Below, piece by piece: positions 16,133 to 31,194 of a DNA stretch of 64,000 nucleotides (the first letter of the stretch is position 1; the number at the start of each line of letters is the position of its first letter). The notes beneath the pieces were generated by a model. That model made no database searches and was not told the DNA's origin. It saw nothing but the letters and a program-made list of their open reading frames with translations. The translations under genes and the position numbers were made by a program. Location of the stretch: contig CAVYUP010000004.1 in NCBI GenBank assembly GCA_963771705.1, positions 126,656 to 190,655 of the forward strand, given 5' to 3'. The DNA comes from an uncultured Bacteroidota bacterium (GTDB lineage: Bacteria; Bacteroidota; Ignavibacteria; Ignavibacteriales; Ignavibacteriaceae).

Positions 16133-16164
16133 CAAAAACGCAAAATTGCAAAAACGCAAAATTG
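16133..16164. repeat. Perfect 16-bp tandem direct repeat (caaaaacgcaaaattg x2) in the divergent promoter region upstream of hydF
   Basis: Read directly: positions 16133-16148 are identical to 16149-16164. Confidence 0.9.
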
Positions 16165-16355
16165 CAGAGGGGAGCGTGATACAATACATACCGGCTTTCT
16201 TATTTAAGAGAATTGGCTTTTCGAAAAGAGAAATTCACTATATAAAGATTCAACACTATTTTAAGCTCAATATTTAAGTTTTAGTGTAAAAATATGATTC
16301 TATTAATAGTTAATGGTGGAACGCTTTTTGACCTTTGTTAATTCAAGGAGAGATT

Positions 16356-17591: not shown

Positions 17592-17602
17592 TCAAATTCA
17601 TT

Positions 17603-18091
17603 ATGGAAAATACAATTTTAGAAAAATATGTACCGGAAGACAAAAGCAGCCTTATACCAATTTTACAGGACATACAAGAGAAATATGGGTACCTTCCTGA
17701 ATATGAACTGCAGAAAGCTGCCGATTTTGTTGGTATACCTTTAAGTCGTGTTTACGGCGTAGCAACTTTTTATAATCAGTTCAGACTAATACCTCTCGGC
17801 GAGAATGTAATAAAAGTATGCCGGGGAACCGCCTGCCATGTAAAGAGTTCCGCGAACGTGCTTTATGCCATTGAATCCGCTCTGAAAATTAAAGCCGGAG
17901 AGACCACGAGGGATAAAAAATTCACCATTGAAGTTGTCAACTGCATCGGCGCCTGCAGCATTGCCCCTGTAATAACAATAAATAATGAATATTACGGAAG
18001 GCTTACAGTTAAAGATATTCCCGGTTTATTAAAGAAGTTCAACAAGCCGAAAGTAAAGAATGAGGAAGCTGTTCCGGAGGCGGCCTTATGA
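17603..18091 (+). CDS. NuoE/HydC-like [2Fe-2S] thioredoxin-fold subunit (hydrogenase set 1)
   Basis: Cys pattern CRGTAC ... CIGACSIAP. It lies 12 nt after hydF. The stop overlaps the next start (ATGA). Confidence 0.85.
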   Translation: MENTILEKYVPEDKSSLIPILQDIQEKYGYLPEYELQKAADFVGIPLSRVYGVATFYNQFRLIPLGENVIKVCRGTACHVKSSANVLYAIESALKIKAGETTRDKKFTIEVVNCIGACSIAPVITINNEYYGRLTVKDIPGLLKKFNKPKVKNEEAVPEAAL

Positions 18092-20074
18092 AAAACTTTA
18101 TGGAAAAATGCTGCGATAAATGCTGGCACACACCGGAAAAACCGTGCGATCTCTTTATAAACTGCTGTACGAAAGGTCCCCTCTGCCATGAATCTGACAG
18201 CTGCAATGAAAAGATAAAGGACCATAACGACGAATTATCGTTTAAGAAGCACGACGTTCCTTTAATATTTATTGGAATGGGGACGTGCGGTCTGGCCGCA
18301 GGAGCGAAGAAAAGTTGAGGAGGCAATTCAGAATGAATTGTCGAAATCAGGAATTAAAGCAAGGATAATTCCCACAGGATGCATCGGCTATTGCGCAAGG
18401 GAGGTCATTGTTGATATAAAACTTCCTGGCGAAGACAGGGTTTCATACTGCGAAATAACCACGAAGATCGTTCCGAAATTCATCCAGAGAACTATTGTGG
18501 AAAAAGGGGTATTCCATGAAAACCTGCTGGGAAAATTCGGAGAATCGGGAGGAGCAGCATCATCAATTAATGAAAATGATTTCTTTAAAAGGCAATTCAA
18601 GATTGTCCTTGAAAACTGCGGAATAATTGATCCTTCATCAATTGATTCATATATAAACGCGGGAGGATTCAGAGCGCTCGACAAGGTTCTCAGGTTAATG
18701 AAACCGGAGGAAGTTATCGATGAAGTTATACAAAGCGGACTAAGAGGAAGAGGGGGGGCAGGATTTTCGGCAGGGAAAAAATGGCAGCTGGCTCACAATC
18801 AGAAAGCCGATCAGAAATATATCATATGCAACGCGGATGAAGGGGATCCCGGCGCATTTATGGATCGTTCCGTTCTGGAAAGCGATCCTTTCAGAATAGT
18901 TGAAGGAATACTGATTGCCGCATACGCAATAGGAGCATCAAAAGGATATGTCTACTGCCGCGCCGAATATCCCCTGGCAATAGAGAGACTCGAAAACACG
19001 ATCTCCCGGTGCAGGGAGTATGGTCTGCTTGGCACAAATATTCTAAACAGCAGCTTTTCATTTGAACTTAAAATTAAAAAAGGGGCCGGCGCTTTTGTCT
19101 GCGGAGAAGAGACCGCCCTGATGGGATCCATCGAAGGAAAAAGAGGAATGCCGCGCCCCCGTCCCCCTTATCCTGCTGATGCGGGACTCTGGGGAAAACC
19201 AACTTCCATAAACAATGTTGAAACTTTCGCGAACGTTCCCGCAGTTATTTACCGAGGAGCTTCATGGTTTAATTCAATCGGTACCAAAACCAGCAAAGGA
19301 ACAAAAGTATTTGCGTTAAGCGGGAAAATAAAAAACACCGGACTGGTGGAAGTTCCTATGGGAATGACATTAAACGATGTTGTTTTCAAGATAGGCGGAG
19401 GGATTCCCGACAATAAAAAATTCAAAGCGATACAGATAGGAGGACCTTCCGGCGGCTGTCTTCCCGAGAGCGTGATAAACACTCCCGTTGATTATGAATC
19501 ATTGAAGCAGGTGGGTGCTATGATGGGATCGGGGGGATTCGTTGTTATGGACGAAGATACCTGTATGGTAGACGTAGCAAAATACTTCCTCACATTCATC
19601 CAAAATGAATCGTGCGGAAAATGCGTACCCTGCAGGGAAGGAACTAAAAGAATGCTGGAAATAATCGAACGCATTCCCACCAGCTACAAGAACACAAAAA
19701 ATAAATTAGATCAGCTTCAGCGCTTTAAAGGAATAGTTCACCTTCAGAGGCTTGCCGATGTAATCCGCGATACCTCTCTGTGCGGACTCGGGCAATCGGC
19801 GCCCAATCCTGTTCTGTCGGGCCTTCAGTATTTCAGGGAGGAATACGAAGAACATCTGTATGACAGAAAATGTTCAGCTGGAGTATGTAAAGAGCTACTT
19901 ACTTTCACGATTGACAATTCGATATGCAACGGATGCGGAGTATGCAGACTAAAATGTACGGTTGACGCCATAGCGGGAGAGAAGAACAAAGCTCATTACA
20001 TAGTTGAGGATAAATGTATTAAATGCGGAATGTGTTTTGAGGCCTGCAGGTTCAAGGCTATTTCGATTAACTGA
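18088..20074 (+). CDS. NuoF/HydB-like NADH/FMN subunit (hydrogenase set 1), with Cys-rich N-terminal extension, N-terminal [2Fe-2S] domain and C-terminal 2x[4Fe-4S] domain. The reading frame is interrupted by a +1 frameshift at the A4 run 18310-18313.
   Basis: ORF 18088-18318 ends ...IFIGMGTCGLAAGAKKS*. ORF 18272-20074 continues in the +1 frame with ..KVEEAIQNEL...TGCIGYCAREV. Together these form one thioredoxin-like [2Fe-2S] domain. Downstream motifs are GRGGAGF, ESCGKCVPCREG, and CNGCGVCRLKC / CIKCGMCFEAC. Automated pipelines would flag this as a pseudogene or frameshifted gene. Confidence 0.8.
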
Positions 20075-20094
20075 AAACTGAATTTGGAAAATGT

Positions 20095-21834
20095 ATGCTT
20101 TCTTTAACGATAAACAATATTAAAGTTAACGCAGAACCGGGAATGACAATACTTGATGCCGCCGATTCTGTAGGAATATCAATACCAACTTTATGTCATC
20201 TGAAAAATCTGATTCCTTCGGGCGCGTGCAGAATCTGTTCTGTTGAAGTAGAAGGACAGAGAGGCCTGGTTCCGGCATGTGCTTTCCCTATTTACGATGG
20301 AATGGTTGTTCAGTGTAATTCCCCAAGAGTAAGGCGCGCGAGGAAAACAATAGTTGAACTTCTCGTAGAAAATCATCCCGATGACTGTCTTATATGCGTA
20401 CGAAATAAAAACTGCGAACTGCAGGATCTTGCCGAACAATACGGATTGAGAGAACACCGTTATGCGGGAGAGAAGAAATGTCATGCTATCGATGTATCAA
20501 GTCCCTCAATTGAGAGAGATCCCGCGAAATGCATTCTATGCGGAAGATGCGTACGTGTATGTCATGAGGTCCAGAAAATAGGGGCGATTGACTTTACCAG
20601 TCGCGGATTTACCAGTATTGTTTCCACCCCCTTTAACAAAGGCCTGAACATAAGCGACTGTATTCTATGCGGTCAGTGCATCCTTGTTTGTCCCACCGCC
20701 GCTTTAAGAGAAAAAAGTTCGCTGAAAGAAGTTTCCAGCGCATTGCTGAATAAGAAGAAATATCCTGTAGTGCAGATAGCTCCGGCTGTACGTGCTACGC
20801 TTGGTGAATTATATAATTATCCTGCAGGAACCGATGTAACAGGACAGCTTGTTACAGCCTTAAGAAGGCTCGGATTCAAAAAAGTATTTGATACAAACTT
20901 TGCAGCCGATCTGACAATAATGGAGGAATCTGAAGAGCTTATAAACCGTATACAGAACAAAACGAAACCGCTGCCTATGTTTACAAGCTGCTGCCCGTCG
21001 TGGATTAAATACGCCGAGATGAACCACCCCGATTTACTTGATCACATATCAAGCTGCAAGTCGCCCCACGAGATGGAAGGAGCAGTAATTAAAACATATT
21101 ACGCTGAAAAAACAGGCATTGATCCGCAGGATATTTTTGTTGTTTCGATTATGCCGTGCACAGTTAAGAAATATGAGGCCAAACGCGCTGAACTTTCTGA
21201 AAATTCACTGCATGATGTAGACGCTGTTTTAACAACGCGTGAACTGGCAAGATTCTTTAAGATTGCGGGGATAAAGTTCGAAGACCTGCCGCAGGATAAC
21301 TTTGACAATCCCCTGGGAGAATCGACAGGCGCCGCGGCGATATTCGGAGCAAGCGGAGGCGTTATGGAAGCAGCGCTGCGAACCGCTTATTTCAAACTAA
21401 CCGGGAAAGAATCGGAGAAAATTAAATATAAGCCGGTAAAGGGTCAGGCCGGGATAAGAGAAGCTTCATTCTGCATTAACAGTATTACCCTCAACACGGC
21501 GGTAGTGAACGGGATTGGAAACATCGGACCCATACTGCAGGAAATAAGAGAAAACAGGAGCAAGTATCATTTCATTGAGGTGATGACTTGTCACGGCGGC
21601 TGTGTAAACGGAGGCGGTCAGCCGATAAACAATGAACCGGAAAAGATAATAAAGAGAATGAAAGCGCTTTATCGTCTTGATGAAAACGCAGCCCATCACT
21701 GCTCGCATGAAAATGAATTTGTTAAACAGCTCTATGAAGAATTTTTTAATGAACCTGACAACCATAAGGTCCATACCATTCTTCACACAAAATATTCAGG
21801 CAGGCAGGAAGTTCCTGCGGAAAATATAAAATGA
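20095..21834 (+). CDS. hydA: [FeFe]-hydrogenase catalytic subunit HydA (M3-type; canonical H-cluster motifs)
   Basis: N-terminal [2Fe-2S] (CHL..GACRIC..C), HxxxCxxC...C cluster, 2x CxxCxxCxxxCP. L1 is FTSCCPSW (20983-21003), L2 is MPCTVKKYEA, L3 is EVMTCHGGCVNGGGQP. Confidence 0.92.
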   Translation: MLSLTINNIKVNAEPGMTILDAADSVGISIPTLCHLKNLIPSGACRICSVEVEGQRGLVPACAFPIYDGMVVQCNSPRVRRARKTIVELLVENHPDDCLICVRNKNCELQDLAEQYGLREHRYAGEKKCHAIDVSSPSIERDPAKCILCGRCVRVCHEVQKIGAIDFTSRGFTSIVSTPFNKGLNISDCILCGQCILVCPTAALREKSSLKEVSSALLNKKKYPVVQIAPAVRATLGELYNYPAGTDVTGQLVTALRRLGFKKVFDTNFAADLTIMEESEELINRIQNKTKPLPMFTSCCPSWIKYAEMNHPDLLDHISSCKSPHEMEGAVIKTYYAEKTGIDPQDIFVVSIMPCTVKKYEAKRAELSENSLHDVDAVLTTRELARFFKIAGIKFEDLPQDNFDNPLGESTGAAAIFGASGGVMEAALRTAYFKLTGKESEKIKYKPVKGQAGIREASFCINSITLNTAVVNGIGNIGPILQEIRENRSKYHFIEVMTCHGGCVNGGGQPINNEPEKIIKRMKALYRLDENAAHHCSHENEFVKQLYEEFFNEPDNHKVHTILHTKYSGRQEVPAENIK

Positions 21835-23849
21835 ACAACGGAATTGTCAGCACAATATTAGATAAATGCAAGAGATGCTACTCGTGCATACGCGAATGCC
21901 CGGCAAAGGCTATAAGTGTTGTTAACGGCCAGGCAGCTGTAATGAGCGAACGATGCATTGCATGCGGTCATTGCGTAAAAGTATGCTCACAGAACGCAAA
22001 GAGGATTAAATCTGATATTGAACTGGTATTAAATACGTTGATACCCGCCGGAAATACAGCCGCTATCATAGCCCCCTCATTTGCCGCGTCGTTTCCTGAC
22101 AACTCTGAAAAAGTACCTTCAGCTTTGAGAAAGCTGGGTTTCTCGAAAGTAATAGAGACCGCCTTCGGGGCAGATCTTATAAGCGATTATTATTTCGAAG
22201 AATTCCAGAAAGAAGACAGCAGAACAGTAATAAGTTCCGCCTGTCCCGCCGTCATTAATTATATAGAAAAGTATCATGGAGAACTGGTGCCCAATCTTGC
22301 CAAAGTGGTTTCCCCTATGATAGCCGTTGGAAAATACTTACGGGCTTTCAGCGGAGCGGACCAGAAGATAGTATTTATTGGTCCCTGCGTAGCCAAGAAG
22401 CAGGAAGCGGAAGCCGACGAAGTTGCAGGAATAATTGATGCTGTACTAACGTTTACCGAGCTGAAAGAAATGCTGGATATAGCAGGAATAAAGGCGGATG
22501 ATCTTCCGGAATCTGAATTTGATCCACCCCATGCTTACCTGGGTAAATCTTTTCCATTAGCGGGAGGGCTGCTTAAGACGGCGAACATTTCGGGTGATAT
22601 TTTAGCCGAAAACATTATAACCGTTGAAGGTAAATCCAAACTCCTTGAGCTGATTGATGAGATATCGGGGAACCGGATCAACGCGAGATTTGCAGATGTA
22701 CTTTTCTGTGAAGGGTGTATAAGCGGACCGGCAATAGACAGCAATCTTAATTACTATTCCCGCAGGGAAAAAGTAATTAAATATATAGAAAAGAAAATCC
22801 ACACCGTAGACAAGCAGGAGTGGAAGAGCAACATCTACAACGCCAGGAATATCGATTTAAGCAGGACATTTTCCGTTAAAAACCAGAGAAGGCCTTATCC
22901 CACCGAAGAAAAGATAAAAGAAATACTTGCCGAGATAAATAAATACACGGTAAAAGATGAATTGAACTGCGGGGCCTGCGGATACAACAGCTGCAGGGAT
23001 TTTGCTGTTGCCATAGCGAAAGGATTAGCCGAAAAGGAAATGTGTCTTCCGCTTCTTATTGATCAGCTTGCCAAAGCTTACGATGATCTGCAGAGTACGC
23101 AGGATCAGCTTCGCACGGCCGAGAAGCTGGCATCAATAGGACAGCTTGCCGCCGGTGTTGCGCACGAGATAAATAATCCCCTTGGTACCATCATGATATA
23201 CGCTTCAATTTTGAAAAAAGAACTGAAAGTAAAAGCTGATGGGGCTCAGTCCTCTGAGGATCTTAATCTTATCATCGAAGAAGCAAACAGGTGCAAGAAC
23301 ATTGTAGGGAACCTGCTGAACTTTGCCCGTCAGGGGAAATTAAATCTCAGTGTAATAAACGTGAGAAGTTTCCTGAAGAACATTCTGAAAAACATAGGAA
23401 TAAATCCCCTTTACAAAGATTATGAAATAAACTGCGGTTTGGTCTCTGATTCATTAGAGATTGAAGGAGATGTTGATCAGCTAAAGCAGGTTTTCTTAAA
23501 TCTGCTCAACAACGCGCTGGAATCAATGGAAGAGAGCAGCAGGAAAATACTGACAATCGGCATTAAAGAAGACGAAGAATACCTGATAATAAAGATAGAA
23601 GACACCGGGTGCGGAATAAGAAAAGAGAATTTCGGAAAAATATTCACACCATTCTTCACTACGAAGAAAATGGGTCGTGGAACGGGTCTTGGACTTGCAA
23701 TAACCTACGGCATCGTGAAAATGCACAAAGGCTCCATTGAATTCCAGAGTGATGAAGGAGAGGGGACAGCATTTACGATAAAACTTCACAAAAAATTAAA
23801 AAAAGTAAGTACTGAAACTATTGAGGAAAATAATGAATACGTCTGTTAA
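21831..23849 (+). CDS. Sensory [FeFe]-hydrogenase-like (HydS/group C-type) domain fused to an Fe-S domain and a histidine kinase
   Basis: 2x[4Fe-4S] motifs (CKRCYSCIRECP, CIACGHCVKVC). H-domain with degenerate motifs SSACPAV (A137 at 22239-22241), GPCVAKKQE, FCEGCISGP. CGACGYNSC...C Fe-S domain. H-box AAGVAHEINNPL. HATPase N/G boxes (LLNNALES, DTGCGI, GTGLGL). The start overlaps the hydA stop (ATGA). Confidence 0.85.
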   Translation: MNNGIVSTILDKCKRCYSCIRECPAKAISVVNGQAAVMSERCIACGHCVKVCSQNAKRIKSDIELVLNTLIPAGNTAAIIAPSFAASFPDNSEKVPSALRKLGFSKVIETAFGADLISDYYFEEFQKEDSRTVISSACPAVINYIEKYHGELVPNLAKVVSPMIAVGKYLRAFSGADQKIVFIGPCVAKKQEAEADEVAGIIDAVLTFTELKEMLDIAGIKADDLPESEFDPPHAYLGKSFPLAGGLLKTANISGDILAENIITVEGKSKLLELIDEISGNRINARFADVLFCEGCISGPAIDSNLNYYSRREKVIKYIEKKIHTVDKQEWKSNIYNARNIDLSRTFSVKNQRRPYPTEEKIKEILAEINKYTVKDELNCGACGYNSCRDFAVAIAKGLAEKEMCLPLLIDQLAKAYDDLQSTQDQLRTAEKLASIGQLAAGVAHEINNPLGTIMIYASILKKELKVKADGAQSSEDLNLIIEEANRCKNIVGNLLNFARQGKLNLSVINVRSFLKNILKNIGINPLYKDYEINCGLVSDSLEIEGDVDQLKQVFLNLLNNALESMEESSRKILTIGIKEDEEYLIIKIEDTGCGIRKENFGKIFTPFFTTKKMGRGTGLGLAITYGIVKMHKGSIEFQSDEGEGTAFTIKLHKKLKKVSTETIEENNEYVC

Positions 23850-24243
23850 AAAAATATTGCTTGTAGACGACGATATCGACCTGCTAGAACAAAACAAACT
23901 GATGCTTGAATCGAAAGGTTATGAAGTTGTTACCGCAGAGAGCGGAAAAGAAGGATGGGAACTTTTCAAAAAAGTAAAACCGGATGGTGCTATAATCGAC
24001 TTAATAATGGAAGAACATGATTCGGGCTTTATTCTCAGCTACAGGATAAAAAAAGACAAGTACGGAAAGACAATTCCCGTATTTGTTCTTACATCCGCGA
24101 CGTACATAACTGGATTTAAATTCAGCGCGGCAACCGATGAGGAAAAAGAATGGATATGCTGCGACGAAATAATCAACAAGCCGGTAGTTATAGATGAACT
24201 TGCGCAGAAACTGGAAGAATATTTCAGTGTGAAAGTATCTTAA
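23833..24243 (+). CDS. Stand-alone response-regulator receiver (CheY-like, no output domain)
   Basis: LLVDDD, IIDLIM (phospho-Asp), LTSAT, NKPV. The ATG at 23833 overlaps the kinase 3' end by 17 nt. Confidence 0.85.
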   Translation: MNTSVKKILLVDDDIDLLEQNKLMLESKGYEVVTAESGKEGWELFKKVKPDGAIIDLIMEEHDSGFILSYRIKKDKYGKTIPVFVLTSATYITGFKFSAATDEEKEWICCDEIINKPVVIDELAQKLEEYFSVKVS

Positions 24244-25766
24244 TGGAAGAAAAAATTCAGCCGAAGGTTTTAGTAGTTGATGACGAAAAAGGACTGCGGC
24301 TCGGGACAAAAAGACTGCTCGAAGCCGAGGGCTACATTGTGAGCTCCGCGGAGAACGGTACTGAAGGGATAAGGCTGGGAACCTCGGAAGAATTTGATCT
24401 AGCGGTTATTGATATGCGGATGCCCGACAAGGACGGGATAAAAGTGCTGAAAGAAATATTGCAGGCATACCCGAATACTATTTGTTTTATCGCTACCGCA
24501 TATGCCAGTTACGAAACGGCAATTGAAGCGACAAAAACAGGAGCGTTTGGTTATATACTGAAACCATTCACTCCCGAAGAACTGCTTTCACGGCTCAAGG
24601 AAGGATATGCAAAGAGGCTCCTGCTGCTGGAAACAGAAAAATGGAAAAGCGAAAGAGAAGAAAGATTACTTGAGGTCGCGTTTGAAAAAACCAGACTAAA
24701 TACCATTGTAAATTCGATAAGCGACGGTGTCTTTGTAGTAAACAAGAAGGGTGAAACAGTTCTTTTCAATCCCGCTCTCACCAGGTACATCAACGTAAAT
24801 CAAATAGAAATCGAAAAGAATACGCTGGAAAAAATCCATCCGAAAATAAAAACTCTTATTAATAAAATCCTTCGTGCCGAAAACCCGGAAAACAAATCGT
24901 ATTCAGATCAGATTGAATTAAAAGAGAGAGGTGAATTATTTATTGAGGCAACATCTTCGGCCGTACCTCATCCTGACGGATCACTTGCCGGGGTAGTTGT
25001 TGTTATAAAAAACATCACCGAACTGAAGAGGATAGAACACCTGAAATCGCAGTTTGTATCGATGGTTTCGCATGAGCTGAAAGCCCCTCTGGCCGCCGTA
25101 TACGGTTATCTGAAACTGCTTACTGACGATGCTTTTGACACCAGCAGAGAGCAGAGGATATCATATATGAAACGTTCGATGGTGAGACTCGATTCATTAT
25201 TAAAAATGGTGAATGACCTCCTTGATATCAGCAGGATGGAATTAAAAACTGTTCAGAGAGAAATAAAACAGGTTGATATTTCTGAAGTTCTTGATTCAAT
25301 ATTGGATTTATTCAGCGCGGAAATACAAAAGAAGAACCTTTCGGTTAAAAAGGATTATGATATAAGCTGCGAGCATTTTTTTGCGGCTAAAGAAGAATTA
25401 GTAAGGCTATTCACAAACCTTATCAGCAACGCAGTAAAATATAACCGTGAACAAGGTTCCATTCATATTACGGCAGAAACAACGGAAAATCATCTGATAA
25501 TAGAAATCCATGACACAGGGATTGGGCTTAAAGAAAACGAGAAAGAAAAGCTCTTTCAGGAATTCTACCGCGCAAAAAATGAAAAAACAAAAGATATAAG
25601 CGGTACGGGGCTTGGTTTATCGATAGTAAAAAAGATCGTTGAATCTTACTCAGGTAAAATAGAAGTAGAATCTGAATTCGGTAAAGGAACCTCATTCAAA
25701 ATATCATTTCCTCTGACAGTGAAGAAAAAAGTTCTAAACGAAGAGAGTAATATACTCATTCAATAA
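24243..25766 (+). CDS. Hybrid REC-PAS-histidine kinase
   Basis: N-terminal receiver (VVDDEKG, VIDMRMPDKDG, KPF), a PAS-like segment (LNTIVNSISDGVFVVNKKGE), H-box MVSHELKAPL, and HATPase (LISNAVKYN, DTGIGL, GTGLGL). The start overlaps the previous stop by 1 nt. Confidence 0.88.
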   Translation: MEEKIQPKVLVVDDEKGLRLGTKRLLEAEGYIVSSAENGTEGIRLGTSEEFDLAVIDMRMPDKDGIKVLKEILQAYPNTICFIATAYASYETAIEATKTGAFGYILKPFTPEELLSRLKEGYAKRLLLLETEKWKSEREERLLEVAFEKTRLNTIVNSISDGVFVVNKKGETVLFNPALTRYINVNQIEIEKNTLEKIHPKIKTLINKILRAENPENKSYSDQIELKERGELFIEATSSAVPHPDGSLAGVVVVIKNITELKRIEHLKSQFVSMVSHELKAPLAAVYGYLKLLTDDAFDTSREQRISYMKRSMVRLDSLLKMVNDLLDISRMELKTVQREIKQVDISEVLDSILDLFSAEIQKKNLSVKKDYDISCEHFFAAKEELVRLFTNLISNAVKYNREQGSIHITAETTENHLIIEIHDTGIGLKENEKEKLFQEFYRAKNEKTKDISGTGLGLSIVKKIVESYSGKIEVESEFGKGTSFKISFPLTVKKKVLNEESNILIQ

Positions 25767-25788
25767 AATAAACTAACGGGACGAATAA

Positions 25789-26169
25789 ATGATTAAAATA
25801 GTAATAATAGACGATGACCCCGACATACTGGATGTAAGTAAAATAGTTCTGTCCTCTAAAGGGTACAGCGTATTTACGGCTCAGAATCCTGATGACGGCT
25901 ATAAATTAATAAAAGATCAGAAACCTGATCTTATTATTCTCGATGTAATGATGAATGAACCGGACGACGGATTTTTCCTTGCGCAGAAATTACGAAGGGA
26001 AAAAATCGACACTCCGATCATAATGTATACATCTGTTTCAAAGACCCTGGGGTTTGAATTCGGCAAGAGCGAAATGGTTCCTGTGGACGAATACGTAGAA
26101 AAACCGATATCACCCGATGAACTAATCGCAAAAGTTGAAAAACTTCTGCCCCAGAAAGTAAAGGAGTAG
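25789..26169 (+). CDS. Stand-alone response-regulator receiver (paralog of 23833-24243, no output domain)
   Basis: IIDDD, LIILDVMM, MYTSVS, EKPI. It shares the unusual TS..x..GF.F insertion with the first REC. Confidence 0.85.
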   Translation: MIKIVIIDDDPDILDVSKIVLSSKGYSVFTAQNPDDGYKLIKDQKPDLIILDVMMNEPDDGFFLAQKLRREKIDTPIIMYTSVSKTLGFEFGKSEMVPVDEYVEKPISPDELIAKVEKLLPQKVKE

Positions 26170-26172
26170 CAT

Positions 26173-26646
26173 ATGCTGGTTTACGAAAAAAACAAATTAT
26201 CGGAGGATGTAGAATCCTTTGTAGAAAAATACGGATCAGACCGATCCGCGCTACTGCCAATTCTGCAGGCGATCCAGAGAAAATATCATCATATATCGGG
26301 ATTCGCGCAGCAGGAGGTTGCAAGACTAATGAATATTCACCCTGTAGAAGTGAACAGTATAATATCCTTTTACTCCTTTCTGCATGAAGACCCCCAGGGG
26401 AGAAATATAGTAAGGTTATGTAAAACAATCTCCTGCGATATGGCGGGAAAGACAGAAGTTGAAAAAGCTGTTCAAAGAGAACTAGGCATTTCATTCGGCG
26501 AAACTACTAAAGATAACCGTATTACACTGGAACATACCAATTGTCTCGGTATGTGCGATGAAGGTCCTGCTATGCTGGTAAACGAGAAAGTTTACACTCA
26601 GCTTGATCCTGAAACTGCGGTAAAAATACTGAGTGAAATAAAGTAG
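26173..26646 (+). CDS. NuoE/HydC-like [2Fe-2S] subunit (hydrogenase set 2)
   Basis: Cys pattern CKTISC ... CLGMCDEGP. It starts 3 nt after the REC gene. Confidence 0.85.
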   Translation: MLVYEKNKLSEDVESFVEKYGSDRSALLPILQAIQRKYHHISGFAQQEVARLMNIHPVEVNSIISFYSFLHEDPQGRNIVRLCKTISCDMAGKTEVEKAVQRELGISFGETTKDNRITLEHTNCLGMCDEGPAMLVNEKVYTQLDPETAVKILSEIK

Positions 26647-26655
26647 GAGAATGAA

Positions 26656-27876
26656 ATGAACACATCATACGCAACAAAAAAGCGCACAGGTCCCGTACTT
26701 TTTTCCGAATACACAAAAGGGGAAGGAATAAGGCATCTGGCCGAAAAATCGCGCGAAGATATTCTATTTGAATTAAAAACCTCCGGACTGAAAGGAAGAG
26801 GCGGGGCAGGATTTCCGACCTCCACGAAGTGGATGCTGACAGCCGCGGCTATTTCCGAGAAGAAATATCTTGTATGCAATGCCGATGAAGGCGAACCGGG
26901 CACATTCAAAGACCGTGTTCTGCTGCTGGAGTACCCAGAGCTGGTATTTGACGGAATGGTTATAGGAGGATACACGACCGGTGCTCAGACAGGGATAGTA
27001 TACCTTCGGGGAGAGTATGAATATATGCTTGAACACCTTGAAGAGTACCTTATGAAGATGCGTGAGGATAATCTGCTCGGTAATAACATTATAGGTAAAA
27101 AAGATTTCAATTTTGATATTAGTATAAGACTTGGCTCAGGAGCATACGTCTGCGGTGAGGAAACCGCACTTATAGAATCCCTTCAGGGGAACAGAGGAGA
27201 GCCGCGCAACAGGCCACCTTACCCGGTGAATACCGGTTATATGGGATACCCCACATCAGTAAACAATGTTGAAACACTCGCCTCGGCCGCGCACATAGCG
27301 GTAAAAGGAGGGGAGTGGTTCAGGCATTTCGGCACCGACAAATCCACAGGATCCAAGTTATTTTCAGTTTCCGGGGACTGCGGCAGGCCGGGTGTTTACG
27401 AACTTCCCTGGGGAAGCTCAATTAAGCAGCTGCTTAAAATAGTTGAGGCCAAAGATACCAAAGCCGTGCAGGTAGGCGGCGCTTCGGGGATATGCATTCC
27501 GAAGACACAGTTCGATCGTATCCTAGCTTACGAGGATGCCGCAACAGGCGGATCTATCATCGTCTTTAATGAGACGCGTGATATGCTTAAGGTGCTAAAG
27601 AATTTCCTCGAATTCTTTGTGGAAGAATCGTGCGGACAATGTACACCCTGCAGGATAGGCAACGTTAAACTGCTTGAGGGTGTTAAGCAGATTGAAAAAG
27701 GAGAATTCACTTTTTCATATATCAACACATTGAAGGAACTCGGGAAGACAATGCAGGTCGCTTCAAAATGTGGACTTGGTCAGTCATCGCCGAATTCTTT
27801 TATTTCAATACTGGAAAACTTTAAGGATGAAATATTCCACACAAACGGAAAGGTGAGAAGAAATGGAAAAGAATAA
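26656..27876 (+). CDS. Minimal NuoF-like NADH/FMN subunit (hydrogenase set 2), lacking the N-terminal [2Fe-2S] and C-terminal ferredoxin-like domains of set 1
   Basis: GRGGAGFP, NADEGEPGTF, ESCGQCTPCRIG, KCGLGQS. The protein ends about 30 aa after the last motif, and no CxxCxxCxxxC motifs are present. Confidence 0.85.
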   Translation: MNTSYATKKRTGPVLFSEYTKGEGIRHLAEKSREDILFELKTSGLKGRGGAGFPTSTKWMLTAAAISEKKYLVCNADEGEPGTFKDRVLLLEYPELVFDGMVIGGYTTGAQTGIVYLRGEYEYMLEHLEEYLMKMREDNLLGNNIIGKKDFNFDISIRLGSGAYVCGEETALIESLQGNRGEPRNRPPYPVNTGYMGYPTSVNNVETLASAAHIAVKGGEWFRHFGTDKSTGSKLFSVSGDCGRPGVYELPWGSSIKQLLKIVEAKDTKAVQVGGASGICIPKTQFDRILAYEDAATGGSIIVFNETRDMLKVLKNFLEFFVEESCGQCTPCRIGNVKLLEGVKQIEKGEFTFSYINTLKELGKTMQVASKCGLGQSSPNSFISILENFKDEIFHTNGKVRRNGKE

Positions 27877-29743
27877 TAACAGCAGGTCGCCGGAAAGCCA
27901 GAGACCCTTTGTAGTTGAAAAAGCACCAGGCGAAAAAGAAATGATCGGTGGAATGGTTTCAGTTGAAATAAACGAGAAAAAGATCTCGATACCTCTCGGC
28001 ACAACCATACTTGAAGCATGCAGGATGAACCAGATCCACATTCCTTCCCTATGCTACCATGAAGACCTCTGCATAGCGGGAGTATGCCGTGTATGTGTAG
28101 TAGAGGTTGAGGGGATGAAGACATTACAGACAGCGTGTTCATTCCCGGTAACCACTCCTATAAAAATTCACACATCAACACCTCACGTAAGAAAAGCAAG
28201 GCGTCATATAATCGACCTTCTGCTAAGTGAGCATTACGGCGAGTGCTATACCTGTTCGAGGAACCAGAACTGCGAGCTTCAGGAACTGGCAAAGGAATAC
28301 GGAGTTGACGGATTCACTTTCGGGCACATTGAAGAACCAAAATATCCTGTAGACAGATCATCGTCATCTGTTATAAGAAATATGAACAAGTGTGTCCTTT
28401 GCAAGAGGTGTATAAGGACGTGTATCGACCTTCAGGAAGTAGGCGTGCTGGAAGCCCTTAACAGGGGGCACGAAACGAAAGTTGGTACTTTCCTGGACAA
28501 ACCGCTGGCAGATGTAATTTGCATAAACTGCGGTCAGTGCATTAACCGTTGTCCCACCGGCGCACTAAAGGCAAACGACCCATCTGATGAAATATGGAGA
28601 GCAATCGATGATCCTTCTAAACACGTAGTTATACAAACCGCGCCTTCTCCGCGGGCAGCAATAGGTGAGGAATTCGGTATAGAGCCGGGTCACTCTTTTA
28701 CCGGCGAGCTCAACACAGCATTAAGAAGGATCGGGTTTAACAGAGTTTTCGACACAAACTTTACCGCAGACCTTACCATTATGGAAGAAGGCACAGAGCT
28801 GCTCAACAGGCTTAAAAAAGCTCTTGTTAATAAAGACGAGTCGATTAAGCTGCCGCAGTTCACCTCCTGCTCGCCAGGCTGGGTAAAGTTCATAGAGCAC
28901 TTCTACCCTGAATACCTTGATTATCTTTCAACGGCAAAATCTCCCCAGCAGATGTTCGGGGCGCTCATAAAAACCTTTTACGCTAAGGAAGCAAAAGTAG
29001 ATCCCGCTGATATAGTTACCGTTGCGCTTATGCCCTGTTCGGCCAAAAAATTTGAATGCAACAGGCCGGAAATGAATGATTCAGGATTCAAAGACGTTGA
29101 TTATGGTTTAACCACCCGCGAAATGGCTCAGATGATTAAAGAAGCGGGAATTTATCTTCCGGAAATGCCGAAGTCGCATTTTGACGATCCCTTCGGGGAC
29201 GCATCGGGTGCGGGACTGATATTCGGAGCGACCGGAGGAGTAATGGAAGCCGCTTTAAGGACGGTATACGAGCTGGTTACGGGGAGACCTGTACCGTTTA
29301 AGAATCTTGATATCACTCCCTGCCGCGGTTTCGACGGTGTTAAGCAGGCATCCGTTAAACTTGAGAACTGTGTTAACGAGTATAAATTCCTTGAAGGAAT
29401 AGAATTAAAGTTCATCGTTGCACACGGAACAGCCAATGCAAAGAAGGTAATGGAAATGCTGCGGCGGGGTGAACTAAAGGACGTTCACTTTGTAGAGATA
29501 ATGGCTTGTCCCGGCGGATGCCTTGGAGGTGGAGGGCAGCCTATACCGACATCTTCCGAAATAAGGCAGAAGCGGGCGCAGGCAATTTATGAAGAAGACG
29601 CATCATTACCCGTCAGGAAATCCCATGAAAACGAGCATGTTCAGTACATTTATGAAAACTTCCTGACCGAGGGTCCCTGCAGCGAACTATCGCATAAACT
29701 GCTGCATACCCATTACACAAAAAGAGGCAAATTCATTTCATAA
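27863..29743 (+). CDS. hydA: [FeFe]-hydrogenase catalytic subunit paralog (HydA2) with a non-canonical L1 motif
   Basis: NuoG-like N-terminus ([2Fe-2S], HxxxCxxC..C, 2x4Fe-4S). L1 is FTSCSPGW (28859-28882), L2 is MPCSAKKFEC, L3 is EIMACPGGCLGGGGQP. An alternative start at M27 (27941) is possible. Confidence 0.88.
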   Translation: MEKNNNSRSPESQRPFVVEKAPGEKEMIGGMVSVEINEKKISIPLGTTILEACRMNQIHIPSLCYHEDLCIAGVCRVCVVEVEGMKTLQTACSFPVTTPIKIHTSTPHVRKARRHIIDLLLSEHYGECYTCSRNQNCELQELAKEYGVDGFTFGHIEEPKYPVDRSSSSVIRNMNKCVLCKRCIRTCIDLQEVGVLEALNRGHETKVGTFLDKPLADVICINCGQCINRCPTGALKANDPSDEIWRAIDDPSKHVVIQTAPSPRAAIGEEFGIEPGHSFTGELNTALRRIGFNRVFDTNFTADLTIMEEGTELLNRLKKALVNKDESIKLPQFTSCSPGWVKFIEHFYPEYLDYLSTAKSPQQMFGALIKTFYAKEAKVDPADIVTVALMPCSAKKFECNRPEMNDSGFKDVDYGLTTREMAQMIKEAGIYLPEMPKSHFDDPFGDASGAGLIFGATGGVMEAALRTVYELVTGRPVPFKNLDITPCRGFDGVKQASVKLENCVNEYKFLEGIELKFIVAHGTANAKKVMEMLRRGELKDVHFVEIMACPGGCLGGGGQPIPTSSEIRQKRAQAIYEEDASLPVRKSHENEHVQYIYENFLTEGPCSELSHKLLHTHYTKRGKFIS

Positions 29744-29753
29744 TTAGTAATTT

Positions 29754-29795
29754 GAGGCTGCCGCCAAAGTTAATTCCGCGGCGGCCTCATTTTAT
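29754..29795 (+). terminator. Rho-independent terminator after hydA2
   Basis: gaggctgccgcc (29754-29765) pairs with gcggcggcctc (29778-29788), giving 10 bp with one bulge, followed by atttta. Confidence 0.65.
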
Positions 29796-29805
29796 ATGGA
29801 GTAAA

Positions 29806-31194
29806 ATGATTTCCCTTATTCCTACATGGGCCCATCATTACGATGAATTCTGGAAAACCCTGAGGGGGAGGAATCTCTGGTTCATCAAGCTGAGATACGG
29901 AGCGGCCGCGGTACTGCTTCTGGTACTCTTCGGTTCAGATTTCGTTATCAGCATTAAATTTTCTCCTGTTCAGCATTATGCCATTCTGCTGGTTACCTTT
30001 ATTATTCTCGGCTATAACGTTATACTTCATTTTCTAAGAAGGTATGTAGTTCCCAGGCCTGACGGCTTCAATCCTATTCATCATTCACTCATCCAGATGC
30101 TGCTGGACATCACCGCTCTGTTCCTGCTGGTTTACTTCACAGGAAGCATTGAATCACCGCTGTTTCTCCTTTTTGTATTTCATATGATCATAGGGAGTCT
30201 CATTCTGCCGGGAGCAGTGATTTACGGAATCGCGTTCTGCATAGTAGCTGTATTTACGAGCATTGTTCTGCTTGAATATAAAGGCGTGCTATACCATCAT
30301 TCAGTAGCGGGATTTTTAAGTGTTCCTGTTTACCAGGAATTCAACTACATAATAACAGTAGCAGTACTTTTCGGTTTCCTGATATTTATAATTGTACTTC
30401 TAACGAACAGGATAGCAAGGCAGCTTTACACCAATGAGCAGCAGCTGGTTGAAACAATTCAGAAGCTCAACAAGGCGGAAGAAGAGAAACAGAAATATAT
30501 AATAGGCGTGGTGCATGAACTTAAGTCGCCCATAGCCGCGGTACAGTCGTATATAGAAATGATCCTGCAGAAATTCCTGGGGCCGCTGAACAAAGATGTA
30601 GAGCAAAGACTACGGTCGGCCAGGGAAAGAGCTGACGAAGCAATAGGGATGATAAATAACATACTTAAAATTTCACGGCTGAGACTGATGAGCGAGATAG
30701 CTGTGGAGAATATAGACATCAAGGAGATCTTCTGTTCTATTCTCGAAAAGCTTAAGGGAGGGATTGAAACAAAGAAAATTAATGTTAAGCTGACCGATGA
30801 CCGCCTTCTTAGGACCCCGGTGAGGGGGGATAAATTTTTAATAGAGATGGCCGTTTCAAATCTTTTATCCAATGCAGCAAAATATGTACCCCCCGAAGGA
30901 TCCATTGATATAATTATAACCGAAACCGAAAAGGGGATTGACATCGATGTGTCGGACAACGGGGTAGGCATTCCTATTAAAGACCAGGAGAATATATTCA
31001 AGGATTTCTACAGGGCCTCGAATATAAAGAACAAGGGATATGAAGGCGCGGGGCTGGGATTATCCATAGTTAAGCAGATAATTATGAGGCATGGGGGGAC
31101 GATATCAGTTGAAAGTCCCGGCAGAATTGCCGATAATGAAACTTCAGGAACGACGTTTAAGGTATTTATCCCATTCCAGTCGGGAGACAATTAA
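29806..31194 (+). CDS. Polytopic membrane sensor histidine kinase
   Basis: About 6 TM helices, H-box VVHELKSPIAAV, HATPase (LLSNAAKYV, DNGVGI, GAGLGL). I use the ATG at 29806 because the ORF-track start at 29752 lies inside the terminator hairpin. Confidence 0.85.
   Translation: MISLIPTWAHHYDEFWKTLRGRNLWFIKLRYGAAAVLLLVLFGSDFVISIKFSPVQHYAILLVTFIILGYNVILHFLRRYVVPRPDGFNPIHHSLIQMLLDITALFLLVYFTGSIESPLFLLFVFHMIIGSLILPGAVIYGIAFCIVAVFTSIVLLEYKGVLYHHSVAGFLSVPVYQEFNYIITVAVLFGFLIFIIVLLTNRIARQLYTNEQQLVETIQKLNKAEEEKQKYIIGVVHELKSPIAAVQSYIEMILQKFLGPLNKDVEQRLRSARERADEAIGMINNILKISRLRLMSEIAVENIDIKEIFCSILEKLKGGIETKKINVKLTDDRLLRTPVRGDKFLIEMAVSNLLSNAAKYVPPEGSIDIIITETEKGIDIDVSDNGVGIPIKDQENIFKDFYRASNIKNKGYEGAGLGLSIVKQIIMRHGGTISVESPGRIADNETSGTTFKVFIPFQSGDN

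What the first reader, a model, noticed from the sequence alone, without database searches (positions are those of the whole stretch)
23833..31194. Three kinases and three receiver domains but no recognisable output domain
Seen: there are two paralogous single-domain REC proteins (23833-24243 and 25789-26169). They share an unusual 'TS..x..GF.F' insert after beta-4. There is also a REC-PAS-kinase hybrid (24243-25766), the HydS-kinase upstream, and a polytopic membrane kinase after the terminator (29806-31194). None has a DNA-binding, AAA+, GGDEF or other effector domain. All REC domains keep the DD/D/T-S/K catalytic residues. Inference: this is either a multi-step or branched phosphorelay whose terminal regulator is encoded elsewhere, or the CheY-like proteins act post-translationally, for example by binding hydrogenase subunits. 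Either possibility would be new for hydrogenase control.
Basis: partly seen in the sequence, partly recalled or inferred. Interest (0 to 1): 0.6.

Follow-up and report, generated by a model that had tools for sequence, protein, structure and literature searches.

The report
Hydrogen-sensing kinase relay without output
Three signalling kinases and three receiver modules sit between two hydrogenase operons of an Ignavibacteria genome with no DNA-binding part of their own, and because the operons carry sigma-54 promoters, the final gene switch must be encoded elsewhere.

Summary
Window 21831-31194 encodes:
- HydS-HK, an [FeFe] H-domain fused to HisKA/HATPase
- REC1, a 136-aa receiver
- a REC-PAS-kinase
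- REC3, a 126-aa receiver
- a 6-TM kinase, after a strong hairpin

Pfam and NCBIfam find no output domain, and all three receivers keep the catalytic residues. Gene order is conserved in 80 Ignavibacteria loci. Published M. roseus proteomics detects all five regulators only during fermentation.

REC1 and REC3 are sister paralogues in a clade of output-less receivers. In both, helix alpha-4 is replaced by a conserved segment that is poorly modelled.

Family-level matching and regulator-only clusters in other families suggest this wiring: HydS-HK -> NtrC-type receiver of the REC-PAS-kinase -> stand-alone receivers, with the 6-TM kinase paired to REC3.

New here: hydC1, hydF and detached rec3 operons carry a conserved sigma-54 -24/-12 promoter with a fixed upstream inverted repeat. 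A DNA-binding enhancer-binding protein is absent from nearly all clusters, including this one, so the terminal transcription regulator should be encoded elsewhere. Five candidate EBPs were profiled and none co-varies with the cluster. Direct action of the receivers on hydrogenase is neither supported nor excluded.

This is a new variant of known H2-sensing two-component control (HydDB group C1; HoxJ/HoxA logic).

The parts
16196..16233 (+). Two inverted-repeat sites, TTTCTTATTTAAGAGAA and (C)TTTTCGAAAAGAGAAA, 21 bp apart. Candidate upstream activator sequence (UAS) for an enhancer-binding protein.
   Evidence: Both score 9/10 against the TTYYC-N7-RRGAA repeat, which sits at -83..-89 (often also at -105..-109) from the -24 element in about 47 of 53 relatives. 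The region is conserved with locus L001. In the window the sites lie at -121 and -100.
16317..16332 (+). Sigma-54-type -24/-12 element, TGGAACGCTTTTTGAC, 24 nt before the hydF ATG.
   Evidence: The same element, TGGAAC-N5-TTTG[ACT][AC], lies upstream of hydF in 15 of 30 relatives. The TTGA -12 variant is the commoner intergenic form in this genome. rpoN is present. This is a weaker match than the hydC1 promoters of relatives.
16356..17591 (+). hydF, the [FeFe] maturase GTPase.
   Evidence: Pfam HydF_dimer, HydF_tetramer, MMR_HSR1.
17558..21834 (+). hydC1-hydB1-hydA1, an electron-bifurcating-type HydABC. hydB1 is frameshifted near 18310 in this assembly.
   Evidence: Pfam. HydB1 is 661 aa in relatives against a 600-aa ORF here. 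The frameshift is shown.
21831..23849 (+). HydS-HK: a sensory [FeFe] H-domain plus C-terminal FeS motif, fused to an NtrB/AtoS-type HisKA-HATPase.
   Evidence: Pfam. NCBIfam AtoS and ZraS similarity in the kinase half. Conserved motifs in 80 orthologues: SSACP / GPC / FCEGC, CGACGY..C and HEINNPL. Its closest kinase paralogues all pair with NtrC-type regulators.
23833..24243 (+). REC1, a stand-alone receiver with an altered beta4-beta5 segment.
   Evidence: Pfam. Alignment A1. The gap to HydS-HK is never more than 35 nt in 79 loci. Sister of REC3. The AF2 model is poor, pLDDT 67.
24243..25766 (+). REC2-PAS-HisKA-HATPase, a second kinase with an NtrC-type N-terminal receiver.
   Evidence: Pfam. 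REC2 nests among NtrC-type receivers. The H-box is HELKAPL, and the kinase core is the closest paralogue of the 6-TM kinase core. Present in 70 of 72 loci that extend far enough.
25789..26169 (+). REC3, a stand-alone receiver and first gene of the second hydrogenase module.
   Evidence: Pfam. Alignment A2, 54 invariant columns. The gap to hydC2 has a median of 2 nt. The AF2 model lacks helix alpha-4. Overlaps the 6-TM kinase gene by 4 nt in L093.
26173..29743 (+). hydC2-hydB2-hydA2, an NADH-dependent (non-bifurcating type) hydrogenase with a short HydB.
   Evidence: Pfam. HydA2 scores 814 bits against NCBIfam NF040763, 'NADH-dependent [FeFe] hydrogenase, group A6' (cut-off 765). Literature on short HydB: PMC7311640.
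29753..29789 (+). Terminator-like hairpin followed by ATTTTAT.
   Evidence: dG -30.1 kcal/mol, z -5.4. The simple scan missed it.
29806..31194 (+). 6-TM membrane histidine kinase, the likely partner of REC3.
   Evidence: Pfam HisKA and HATPase_c; 6TM_PilS just below its cut-off. Flanks the hyd2 module in 33 loci. Adjacent to REC3 in L093 and L094.

Best explanation
The region is the signalling part of a hydrogenase regulon shared across the Ignavibacteria.

Shown:
- Five proteins (three kinases and three receiver domains) have no output domain.
- Their arrangement is conserved.
- In M. roseus they are made together with the hydrogenases, and only during fermentation.
- The hydrogenase operons have sigma-54 promoters with a conserved upstream inverted repeat.
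- No sigma-54 activator lies in the cluster.

Inferred wiring:
- HydS-HK senses H2 at its catalytically crippled H-cluster and, being an NtrB-type kinase, phosphorylates the NtrC-type receiver at the N-terminus of the REC-PAS-kinase.
- That second kinase and its paralogue, the 6-TM membrane kinase, phosphorylate the sister stand-alone receivers REC1 and REC3.
- H2 and a membrane-derived signal therefore converge on these two receivers.

Inferred output:
- Transcription of hydF, hydABC1 and rec3-hydABC2 is finally set by a DNA-binding sigma-54 enhancer-binding protein encoded elsewhere.
- That protein either receives phosphate from HydS-HK as a second branch or is modulated by REC1~P/REC3~P.
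- The stand-alone receivers, whose alpha4-beta5-alpha5 face is remodelled but strongly conserved, act as partner-binding modulators or phosphate sinks, not as DNA binders.

Likely physiological purpose: to balance the bifurcating and the NADH-dependent hydrogenase against the H2 partial pressure.
For: No output domain:
- Pfam and NCBIfam find none.

Conservation:
- Gene order is the same in 80 loci.
- REC-PAS-HK follows REC1 in 70 of 72 loci.
- The triad is also present in another class of the phylum (L081).

HydS-HK -> REC2:
- The HEINNPL kinase core is closest to kinases paired with NtrC-type regulators.
- REC2 nests among NtrC-type receivers.
- HydS-HK is directly followed by REC-PAS-HK, with no REC1 between them, in L090 and L093.
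- The same order, sensor-HK -> REC-HK -> stand-alone REC, occurs with a Cache sensor in L097.

REC-PAS-HK / 6-TM-HK -> REC1 / REC3:
- The two kinase cores are close paralogues: REC-PAS-HK is the 6-TM core's best hit and the 6-TM core is REC-PAS-HK's fourth, and their DHp specificity positions are near-identical.
- REC1 and REC3 are sisters.
- rec3 overlaps the 6-TM kinase gene by 4 nt in L093.

Sigma-54 control:
- The strict -24/-12 pattern hits 16 times in 1.39 Mb, and 15 of those hits are upstream of hydC1.
- With a position weight matrix (PWM), 44 of 59 loci score above the 99% background.
- The inverted repeat is at a fixed distance in about 47 of 53 loci.
- hydF and detached rec3 have their own copies.
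- rpoN and 21 EBPs exist in the genome, none in the window.

Expression:
- MROS_2483, 2485, 2486 and 2489 were detected in 3/3 fermentative replicates and MROS_2484 in 1/3, and all in 0/3 aerobic replicates (PMC5492636 Table S2).

The beta4-beta5 segment is at least as conserved as the rest of each protein.
Against: - No phosphotransfer has been measured. Partner assignment rests on family-level similarity and adjacency.
- The tightest junction in this order is HydS-HK/REC1 (never more than 35 nt). In L092 and L094 HydS-HK has only a REC3-type receiver beside it. Direct HydS-HK -> stand-alone receiver transfer is therefore equally possible.
- DHp and receiver specificity positions are nearly invariant, so covariation could not decide.
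- The terminal EBP is not identified. None of five profiled EBPs co-varies with the cluster.
- The window's own promoter, TGGAAC..TTGAC, is a weaker sigma-54 match than those of relatives. No transcription start is mapped.
- The sigma-54 regulator could respond to oxygen or redox independently of this relay.
Confidence: 0.5

Rival explanations
1. The stand-alone receivers are post-translational effectors. Phosphorylated REC3 (and REC1) bind the hydrogenase itself, for example the NuoE-like HydC subunit, and gate electron flow. H2 and membrane signals would then tune enzyme activity directly, while sigma-54 control only switches the cluster on under anoxia.
For: - rec3 is coupled to hydC2 by a median of 2 nt in 47 loci.
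- It stays attached to the hyd2 module when that module is moved 0.9-6.5 kb away.
- Rare REC3::HydC2 fusion proteins exist.
- REC3 emPAI (0.33-0.43) is close to that of the hydrogenase subunits in M. roseus.
- The closest relatives of REC1/REC3 in the genome are three stand-alone receivers embedded in a dsr-like redox-enzyme cluster.
- The remodelled alpha-4 face is strongly conserved.
Against: - REC3-type receivers sit in regulator-only clusters with no hydrogenase genes within 19 kb in other families (L092-L094).
- Fused forms occur in only 2 clusters out of more than 2000 hits, and unfused forms occur in the same 90% cluster.
- Similar abundance follows simply from co-transcription.
- I know of no precedent for a receiver domain regulating a hydrogenase.
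Confidence: 0.15
2. The sigma-54 activator and the in-cluster relay are separate layers. An oxygen- or redox-responsive EBP turns the whole cluster on in fermentation. The relay's stand-alone receivers serve mainly as phosphate sinks or kinase inhibitors (as FixT does for FixL) or feed some other process, and do not control hyd transcription.
For: - The regulators are themselves products of the regulated operon and are absent in aerobic cells, so they cannot initiate induction.
- None of the profiled EBPs tracks the cluster, and two are universal in the order.
- Stand-alone receivers are abundant here: 34 of the 104 receiver domains lie in proteins under 180 aa.
- A stand-alone receiver that inhibits its kinase is documented (PMC7078487; title and abstract seen).
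Against: - HydS-HK is invariably embedded in, or next to, hydrogenase or REC3 genes.
- Its NtrB-type core fits an NtrC-type EBP partner.
- Sinks alone do not explain why two kinases and two receivers are kept at 60-90% identity across a class.
Confidence: 0.2
3. The three kinases belong to unrelated two-component systems that merely happen to be co-located. There is no common network, and their true partners are scattered in the genome.
For: - The genome holds many orphan kinases and regulators.
- The 6-TM kinase lies behind a terminator-like hairpin.
Against: - The same five genes travel together in 33 of 48 loci with enough sequence.
- They re-assemble as a regulator-only quartet in another family (L093).
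- Kinase and receiver paralogy is pairwise congruent.
- All five are co-expressed.
Confidence: 0.05

Closest known systems
[FeFe] hydrogenase group C1, 'histidine kinase-linked (putative)' of HydDB (PMC5037454)
   Same: A hydrogenase H-domain with accessory FeS clusters is linked to a histidine kinase, lies next to a group A3 bifurcating hydrogenase, and has a proposed H2-sensing role.
   Different: HydDB gives no downstream pathway and lists the role as undetermined. Here the kinase is fused in one polypeptide and is followed by a conserved stand-alone receiver and a receiver-kinase. I did not run the HydDB classifier itself.
H2-sensing [NiFe] systems: HoxBC-HoxJ-HoxA of Ralstonia eutropha and HupUV-HupT-HupR of Rhodobacter capsulatus (HydDB group 2b; details from my own knowledge)
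   Same: A catalytically weak hydrogenase reports H2 to a histidine kinase, and an NtrC-family regulator controls hydrogenase operons. The NtrB-type kinase core and sigma-54 promoters found here fit that logic.
   Different: - The sensor here is [FeFe] and is fused to the kinase.
- The NtrC-type receiver carries a second kinase instead of AAA+/HTH domains.
- Two stand-alone receivers and a membrane kinase are added.
- The DNA-binding regulator is not linked.
HydS of Thermotoga maritima and Thermoanaerobacter mathranii (groups C/D; PMC8163306, PMC13104023)
   Same: The same domain core (2x[4Fe-4S], H-domain, C-terminal Cys4 FeS motif). The proton-relay Cys and the Met residues flanking the H-cluster are replaced (SSACP, GPC; comparison with PMC8163306).
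   Different: Those proteins end in a PAS domain or in nothing, and are linked to PP2C phosphatases or AraC-type regulators. PAS/SpoIIE-linked and MCP-fused versions also exist in this phylum. Signalling remains unresolved for all of them.
Multi-kinase networks that converge on a stand-alone receiver: KinA-E -> Spo0F -> Spo0B -> Spo0A; MrrA hub of Caulobacter; RedCDEF of Myxococcus (my own knowledge)
   Same: Several kinases and receiver-only proteins form a branched relay, and a stand-alone receiver integrates the inputs.
   Different: No Hpt or Spo0B-like transferase lies in the cluster, and the genome's five Hpt domains are elsewhere. The second kinase has an N-terminal NtrC-type receiver. 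The final acceptor is unknown.
Stand-alone receivers with a degenerate helix alpha-4 (Sma0114, SdrG 'FATGUY' family; my own knowledge) and the kinase-inhibiting receiver FixT (PMC7078487)
   Same: Single-domain receivers that act by protein-protein contact, with an unusual region after beta-4.
   Different: The PFxFATG[G/Y] motif is absent (PVFVLTSA / PIIMYTSV). They are not associated with HWE/HisKA2 kinases. They have no 4-Cys FeS site.

Membership tests
Response regulator receiver domain (Pfam PF00072) | Profile match over the gathering score, plus the acidic pair, phospho-acceptor Asp, Thr/Ser and Lys | tested here: met
   REC1 53.6 bits, REC2 96.9 bits and REC3 79.2 bits against a cut-off of 30.2. 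D13/D14, D56, T87 and K116 are invariant in REC1; D9/D10, D52 and K105 are invariant and T81 at least 90% conserved in REC3; the DD pair, T and K are present in REC2 and its K is invariant in 71 orthologues.
Stand-alone (CheY-like) response regulator | No domain other than the receiver | tested here: met
   At 136 and 126 aa, the receiver fold fills the whole chain. No NCBIfam family reaches its cut-off.
[FeFe] hydrogenase group C1 (histidine kinase-linked sensory) | H-domain with H-cluster cysteines linked to a histidine kinase; genomic link to a group A hydrogenase | tested here: met
   Fe_hyd_lg_C, HisKA and HATPase_c lie in one protein that overlaps hydA1 by 4 nt. The cysteines of the L1-L3 motifs are conserved in 80 orthologues. 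The HydDB k-NN classifier itself was not run.
Classical His-Asp-His-Asp phosphorelay | An Hpt domain or Spo0B-like transferase between two receivers | tested here: not met
   PF01627 gives five matches in the genome, none in the window or on a neighbouring gene. A transferase role for the REC-PAS-kinase DHp is possible but untested.
NtrC-family sigma-54 enhancer-binding response regulator | Receiver plus Sigma54_activat AAA+ plus HTH_8 | tested here: not met
   No PF00158 match lies in the window. The 21 genomic matches are all elsewhere. REC2 has the NtrC-type receiver only.
FATGUY receivers (PFxFATG[G/Y]) | PFxFATG[G/Y] motif at beta-4/alpha-4; association with HWE/HisKA2 kinases | tested here: not met
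   The sequences read PVFVLTSA and PIIMYTSV. The adjacent kinases are HisKA (PF00512) types.
DVU0259/DivK-type receiver (NCBIfam NF045717) | Score over 160 bits | tested here: not met
   45.8 bits (REC1) and 56.6 bits (REC3).
PilS-type kinase | 6TM_PilS membrane domain over the cut-off; PilR partner | tested here: inconclusive
   PF25323 scores 25.9 bits against a cut-off of 27. No PilR-type regulator is adjacent.
NADH-dependent [FeFe] hydrogenase group A6 (context: HydA2) | NCBIfam NF040763 over 765 bits; short HydB lacking the extra FeS domains | tested here: met
   814.2 bits. HydB2 is 406 aa with only Complex1_51K and NADH_4Fe-4S. Activity was not tested.
Sigma-54-dependent promoter (cis element of the regulon) | GG-N10-GC (-24/-12) at a fixed distance from the gene; rpoN present; upstream activator site | tested here: inconclusive
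   Relatives meet it clearly. The window's own site, TGGAACGCTTTTTGAC, has GA at -12 and A at position 4. rpoN is present. No transcript start data exist.

The most novel reading that the evidence does not exclude
REC1 and REC3 are the real effectors of an H2-sensing pathway. They would be alpha-4-less receivers that, once phosphorylated, dock on a non-two-component target. One candidate target is a receiver-less sigma-54 activator; the sensorless EBP at G000:C8:17251-18351 is universal in the order, and this would amount to a 'split NtrC'. The other candidate is the HydABC complexes themselves, which would be the first post-translational, phosphorylation-dependent control of an [FeFe] hydrogenase. 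The same receiver clade embedded in a dsr-like cluster would then point to a general way of wiring redox enzymes to kinases in this lineage.
Probability: 0.2. Interest if true: 0.8.

Novelty: new variant of a known kind. Interest (0 to 1): 0.5.

Why it matters
How sensory [FeFe] hydrogenases pass on the H2 signal is still open; papers up to 2026 discuss only the sensor protein itself.

This cluster has several practical advantages:
- The H-domain is fused directly to a histidine kinase, so H2-dependent autophosphorylation can be measured in a tube.
- The likely next steps (one receiver-kinase, two stand-alone receivers, one membrane kinase) are encoded right beside it.
- The whole set is conserved in cultured organisms (Melioribacter roseus MROS_2480-2489), where all the proteins are already known to be made during fermentation.
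- The sigma-54 promoter with its conserved inverted repeat gives a concrete bait for fishing out the missing DNA-binding regulator.

Physiologically, the network sits between a bifurcating and an NADH-dependent hydrogenase. It may therefore decide how a fermenter disposes of reducing equivalents as H2 builds up or is consumed by partners. That is relevant to syntrophy and to H2 budgets in sediments and aquifers.

Tried and rejected
1. Cryptic output domain. Pfam and NCBIfam on all five proteins found none. The structure search of the REC3 model returned only ordinary receiver domains such as VicR, MicA, PhoP and RR468.
2. Hpt or Spo0B-like transferase near the cluster: none.
3. Conserved transcription factor next to the cluster. 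Genes after REC-PAS-HK in short-form loci, inserts between modules, and genes upstream of hydC1 and downstream of the 6-TM kinase were clustered and scanned. They were only T9SS cargo/C25 peptidases, HydG, fumarase-like and other unrelated genes. An EBP lies within 3 kb in only 4 of the 33 loci that include the 6-TM kinase.
4. Covariation to assign kinase-receiver partners. This was not informative, because the specificity positions are nearly invariant in 34-80 orthologues.
5. Rosetta-stone search with a REC3+HydC2 concatenate. Only two fused clusters were found, and fused and unfused forms occur among near-identical sequences. This is weak.
6. The perfect 16-bp tandem repeat at 16133-16164 as an operator. 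Its core 12-mer (ACGCAAAATTGC) is found in none of 80 relatives and the repeat is absent from the nearest one, L001. It is not part of the conserved architecture.
7. Genome-wide search for other promoters with the same repeat plus -24/-12. It gave 16 hits, about what chance predicts, so no regulon could be defined.
8. Phylogenetic profiling over 33 genomes of the order (about 22 with full-length HydS-HK). Five sigma-54 activators were profiled: three orphan NtrC-type, one sensorless and one with a degenerate receiver. Two are universal and three are uncorrelated.
9. The closest paralogue of REC2, the NtrC-type regulator at C14:145382, turned out to have its own kinase two genes away.
11. The AF2 model of REC1 is too poor (pLDDT 67) to interpret beyond the disordered 89-99 segment.

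Full report
**What is there.** On the + strand the window carries one co-directional string.
- hydF: ATG 16356 to 17591.
- hydC1-hydB1-hydA1: 17558-21834, a NuoE/NuoF/HydA trimer of the bifurcating type.
- HydS-HK: 21831-23849.
- REC1: 23833-24243.
- REC-PAS-HisKA-HATPase: 24243-25766.
- REC3: 25789-26169.
- hydC2-hydB2-hydA2: 26173-29743.
- A membrane kinase: ORF from 29752, likely start 29806, to 31194.

HydS-HK overlaps hydA1 by 4 nt, REC1 overlaps HydS-HK, and the REC-PAS-kinase overlaps REC1 by 1 nt. After the hydA2 stop there is a 12-bp GC-rich hairpin followed by ATTTTAT (dG -30.1 kcal/mol, z -5.4).

Pfam and NCBIfam find only Response_reg, PAS, HisKA, HATPase_c, the hydrogenase/FeS domains and a sub-threshold PilS-like 6-TM domain. 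There is no DNA-binding, AAA+, GGDEF or other effector domain. HydA2 passes the NCBIfam model for NADH-dependent group A6 hydrogenases (814 against 765 bits), and HydB2 lacks the extra FeS domains. The two enzymes are thus of different kinds, as discussed for such pairs in PMC7311640.

- All three receivers keep the acidic pair, the acceptor Asp, Thr and Lys, and these are conserved, mostly invariant, in orthologues.
- In a maximum-likelihood tree of all 104 receiver domains of the genome, REC1 and REC3 are sisters (100/98).
- They lie in a 21-member clade made only of stand-alone and hybrid-kinase receivers, none with an output domain.
- The 'TS....GF.F' string is found only in these two proteins in the genome. 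Its T, S and G are conserved in both families; the aromatic positions are fixed in REC1 and variable in REC3.
- The string marks a segment that replaces helix alpha-4. In the REC3 model (pLDDT 80) residues 82-100 have no helix and a pLDDT below 50.
- That segment is nevertheless as conserved as the rest of the protein: majority frequency 0.83 against 0.74 overall in REC1, and 0.78 against 0.82 in REC3.
- The REC1 model is poor.

**It is a conserved system.** HydS-HK has thousands of relatives, the closest all from Ignavibacteria.
- In 80 loci from named genome assemblies the gene order is the same.
- The HydS-HK to REC1 gap has a median of 10 nt and is never more than 35 nt (n=79). The REC3 to hydC2 gap has a median of 2 nt (n=47).
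- REC-PAS-HK follows REC1 in 70 of 72 loci with enough sequence.
- The REC3-hydC2B2A2-6TM-kinase module follows in 33 of 48. It is absent in Ignavibacterium-like genomes. In four genomes it is displaced by T9SS cargo genes and stays intact.
- A genome of another class of the phylum keeps HydS-HK, a REC1-like receiver and a REC-HisKA-HATPase without PAS (L081).
- The M. roseus genome paper lists the hydrogenases Mros2480-2482 and 2487-2488 but says nothing about the four genes between them (PMC3534657).
- That species' label-free proteomics detects MROS_2483, 2485, 2486 and 2489 in 3/3 fermentative and 0/3 aerobic replicates, and MROS_2484 in 1/3. The emPAI values are similar to those of the hydrogenase subunits (PMC5492636 Table S2).

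**Likely wiring (inferred).**
- The HydS-HK kinase core (H-box HEINNPL) is closest to genomic kinases that sit next to NtrC-type regulators.
- The receiver of the REC-PAS-kinase nests among NtrC-type receivers.
- The kinase cores of the REC-PAS-kinase and the 6-TM kinase (HELKxPL) are close paralogues: REC-PAS-HK is the 6-TM core's best hit, and the 6-TM core ranks fourth for REC-PAS-HK. They share the DHp helix-1 positions A-A..G/S-Y..L, just as REC1 and REC3 are sisters.
- Other families of the class give independent support.
  - L093 has 6-TM-kinase <- REC3 (4-nt overlap), divergent from HydS-HK -> REC-PAS-kinase (7-nt gap), with no hydrogenase genes in 19 kb.
  - L090 has hydB2 <- hydC2 <- REC3 | HydS-HK -> REC-PAS-kinase.
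  - L097 has the same three-step order behind a Cache-HAMP sensor, while its paralogous Cache kinase pairs with a full NtrC-type regulator.
- The receivers in those families are of the REC3 type, and REC1 is a derived sister clade.
- I therefore read the network as HydS-HK -> REC2 (activating or inhibiting the second kinase) -> REC1/REC3, with the 6-TM kinase as a second input to REC3.

The caveat is serious. A REC1/REC3-type receiver is the only partner that is always beside HydS-HK (L092 and L094 have nothing else). Direct HydS-HK -> stand-alone receiver transfer cannot be excluded, and invariance of the specificity residues defeated a covariation test.

**Where the output is.** No neighbour on either side is a conserved transcription factor. 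But the cis elements are informative.
- The strict sigma-54 pattern TGGCA[CT]-N5-[AT]TGC[AT] occurs 16 times on the + strand of 1.39 Mb of related loci, and 15 of these lie just upstream of hydC1.
- A matrix built from them scores above the 99th background percentile in 44 of 59 loci. Most of the rest read TGGCAY-N5-ATGAA.
- In this genome the TTGA form of the -12 element is the commoner intergenic one. Several instances lie next to EBP genes.
- rpoN is present.
- An inverted repeat, TTYYC-N7-RRGAA, sits at -83..-89 from the -24 element in about 47 of 53 loci. A second copy about 22 bp further up is frequent.
- hydF has its own TGGAAC-N5-TTTGNN element in 15 of 30 loci.
- rec3 has TGGCAT-N5-ATGTT when it is detached.
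- In the window hydF abuts hydC1. The hydF-type element (16317-16332) and two repeat copies (16196-16233) are present and conserved with L001.

Sigma-54 promoters cannot fire without an enhancer-binding ATPase (established knowledge). The genome has 21 of these, and none is in the window. The terminal transcriptional regulator is therefore encoded elsewhere.

I profiled five candidates across 33 genomes of the order, about two-thirds of which carry full-length HydS-HK:
- the orphan NtrC-type regulator C3:210255 and the sensorless EBP C8:17251 are universal;
- C3:3937, C7:17746 and C5:375145 are uncorrelated.

None is pinned down, and 16 remain untested.

**Comparison and verdict.** The sensor half is a member of HydDB's putative group C1. 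PAS/PP2C-linked and MCP-fused sensory hydrogenases also occur in this phylum. The overall logic resembles the [NiFe] HoxJ/HoxA and HupT/HupR systems. The branched, receiver-only middle resembles Spo0F-, MrrA- or RedF-type networks, but without an Hpt/Spo0B step.

I found no paper that describes the pathway downstream of a kinase-fused HydS. Recent work still treats HydS signalling as open.

The finding is real, conserved and expressed. Its 'no output domain' puzzle is best explained by an unlinked sigma-54 activator plus partner-binding stand-alone receivers. A direct effect on the enzymes remains a minority possibility.

I rate it a new variant of a known kind, of moderate interest.

Noticed in passing
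window 18088-18330: hydB1 is split by a frameshift. Frame 1 reads ...MGTCGLAAGAKKS*, and the next frame continues ...KVEEAIQNELSK. Relatives have one 661-aa protein with the same Cys/His-rich N-terminus. This is either an assembly error at an A-run or a real lesion.
   Followed up: partly
window 28859-28882 (HydA2): HydA2 reads FTSCSPGW instead of the canonical TSCCP. This is fixed in 34 of 34 orthologues, while HydA1 orthologues read FTSCCPGW (62 of 63). It is a family trait of this A6-type enzyme and not an error.
   Followed up: partly
window 16133-16164: A perfect 16-bp tandem repeat (AAAAACGCAAAATTGC x2) lies 150-185 bp upstream of the sigma-54-like element. Its core 12-mer is absent from all 80 related loci, including the nearest, so it is lineage-specific at best.
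   Followed up: yes
G000:C6:378710-392115 (outside the window): The three closest relatives of REC1/REC3 in the genome are stand-alone receivers (130, 171 and 128 aa), also with irregular beta4-beta5 segments. With a PAS-kinase, they are interleaved among DsrA-like sulfite reductase, DsrMK-like and NrfD/4Fe4S genes. This is a second redox-enzyme cluster with output-less receivers.
   Followed up: partly
G000 genome-wide; e.g. C14:543710 upstream of a nuoA-like gene, C10:109521, C5:675024: Sigma-54 -24/-12 elements in this genome mostly read TGGCAY-N5-TTGAA rather than TTGCA (14 of 20 are intergenic). One precedes the nuo (complex I) operon.
   Followed up: partly
L082, L084, L085, L086 (same phylum): Other sensory [FeFe] hydrogenase formats coexist in the phylum: HydS-PAS followed by a SpoIIE/PP2C phosphatase, and HydS fused to an MCP signalling domain (770 aa). 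In L083 a 633-aa sigma-54 activator sits directly upstream of a HydS-like gene.
   Followed up: partly
PMC5492636 Table S2 (M. roseus MROS_2483): In that table the HydS-HK orthologue is annotated 'sigma-54 dependent transcription regulator'. The window protein and its orthologues have no sigma-54 interaction domain, so the name is misleading.
   Followed up: partly
L034, L039, L043, L047, L058, L067, L089: Genes for about 1030-1200-aa C25-peptidase T9SS cargo proteins recur immediately after the REC-PAS-kinase, or are inserted between the two hydrogenase modules.
   Followed up: partly
P0121, P0122, P0243 (metagenomic proteins): Rare read-through fusions of REC3 with HydC2 (264-285 aa) exist alongside unfused near-identical HydC2 sequences.
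   Followed up: yes
window 33553-36663 (- strand): A solitary 1036-aa Type ISP restriction-modification fusion (Type_ISP_C, N6_Mtase, Eco57I) lies in a stretch of 35-38% G+C, against 41-46% in most of the flanks.
   Followed up: no
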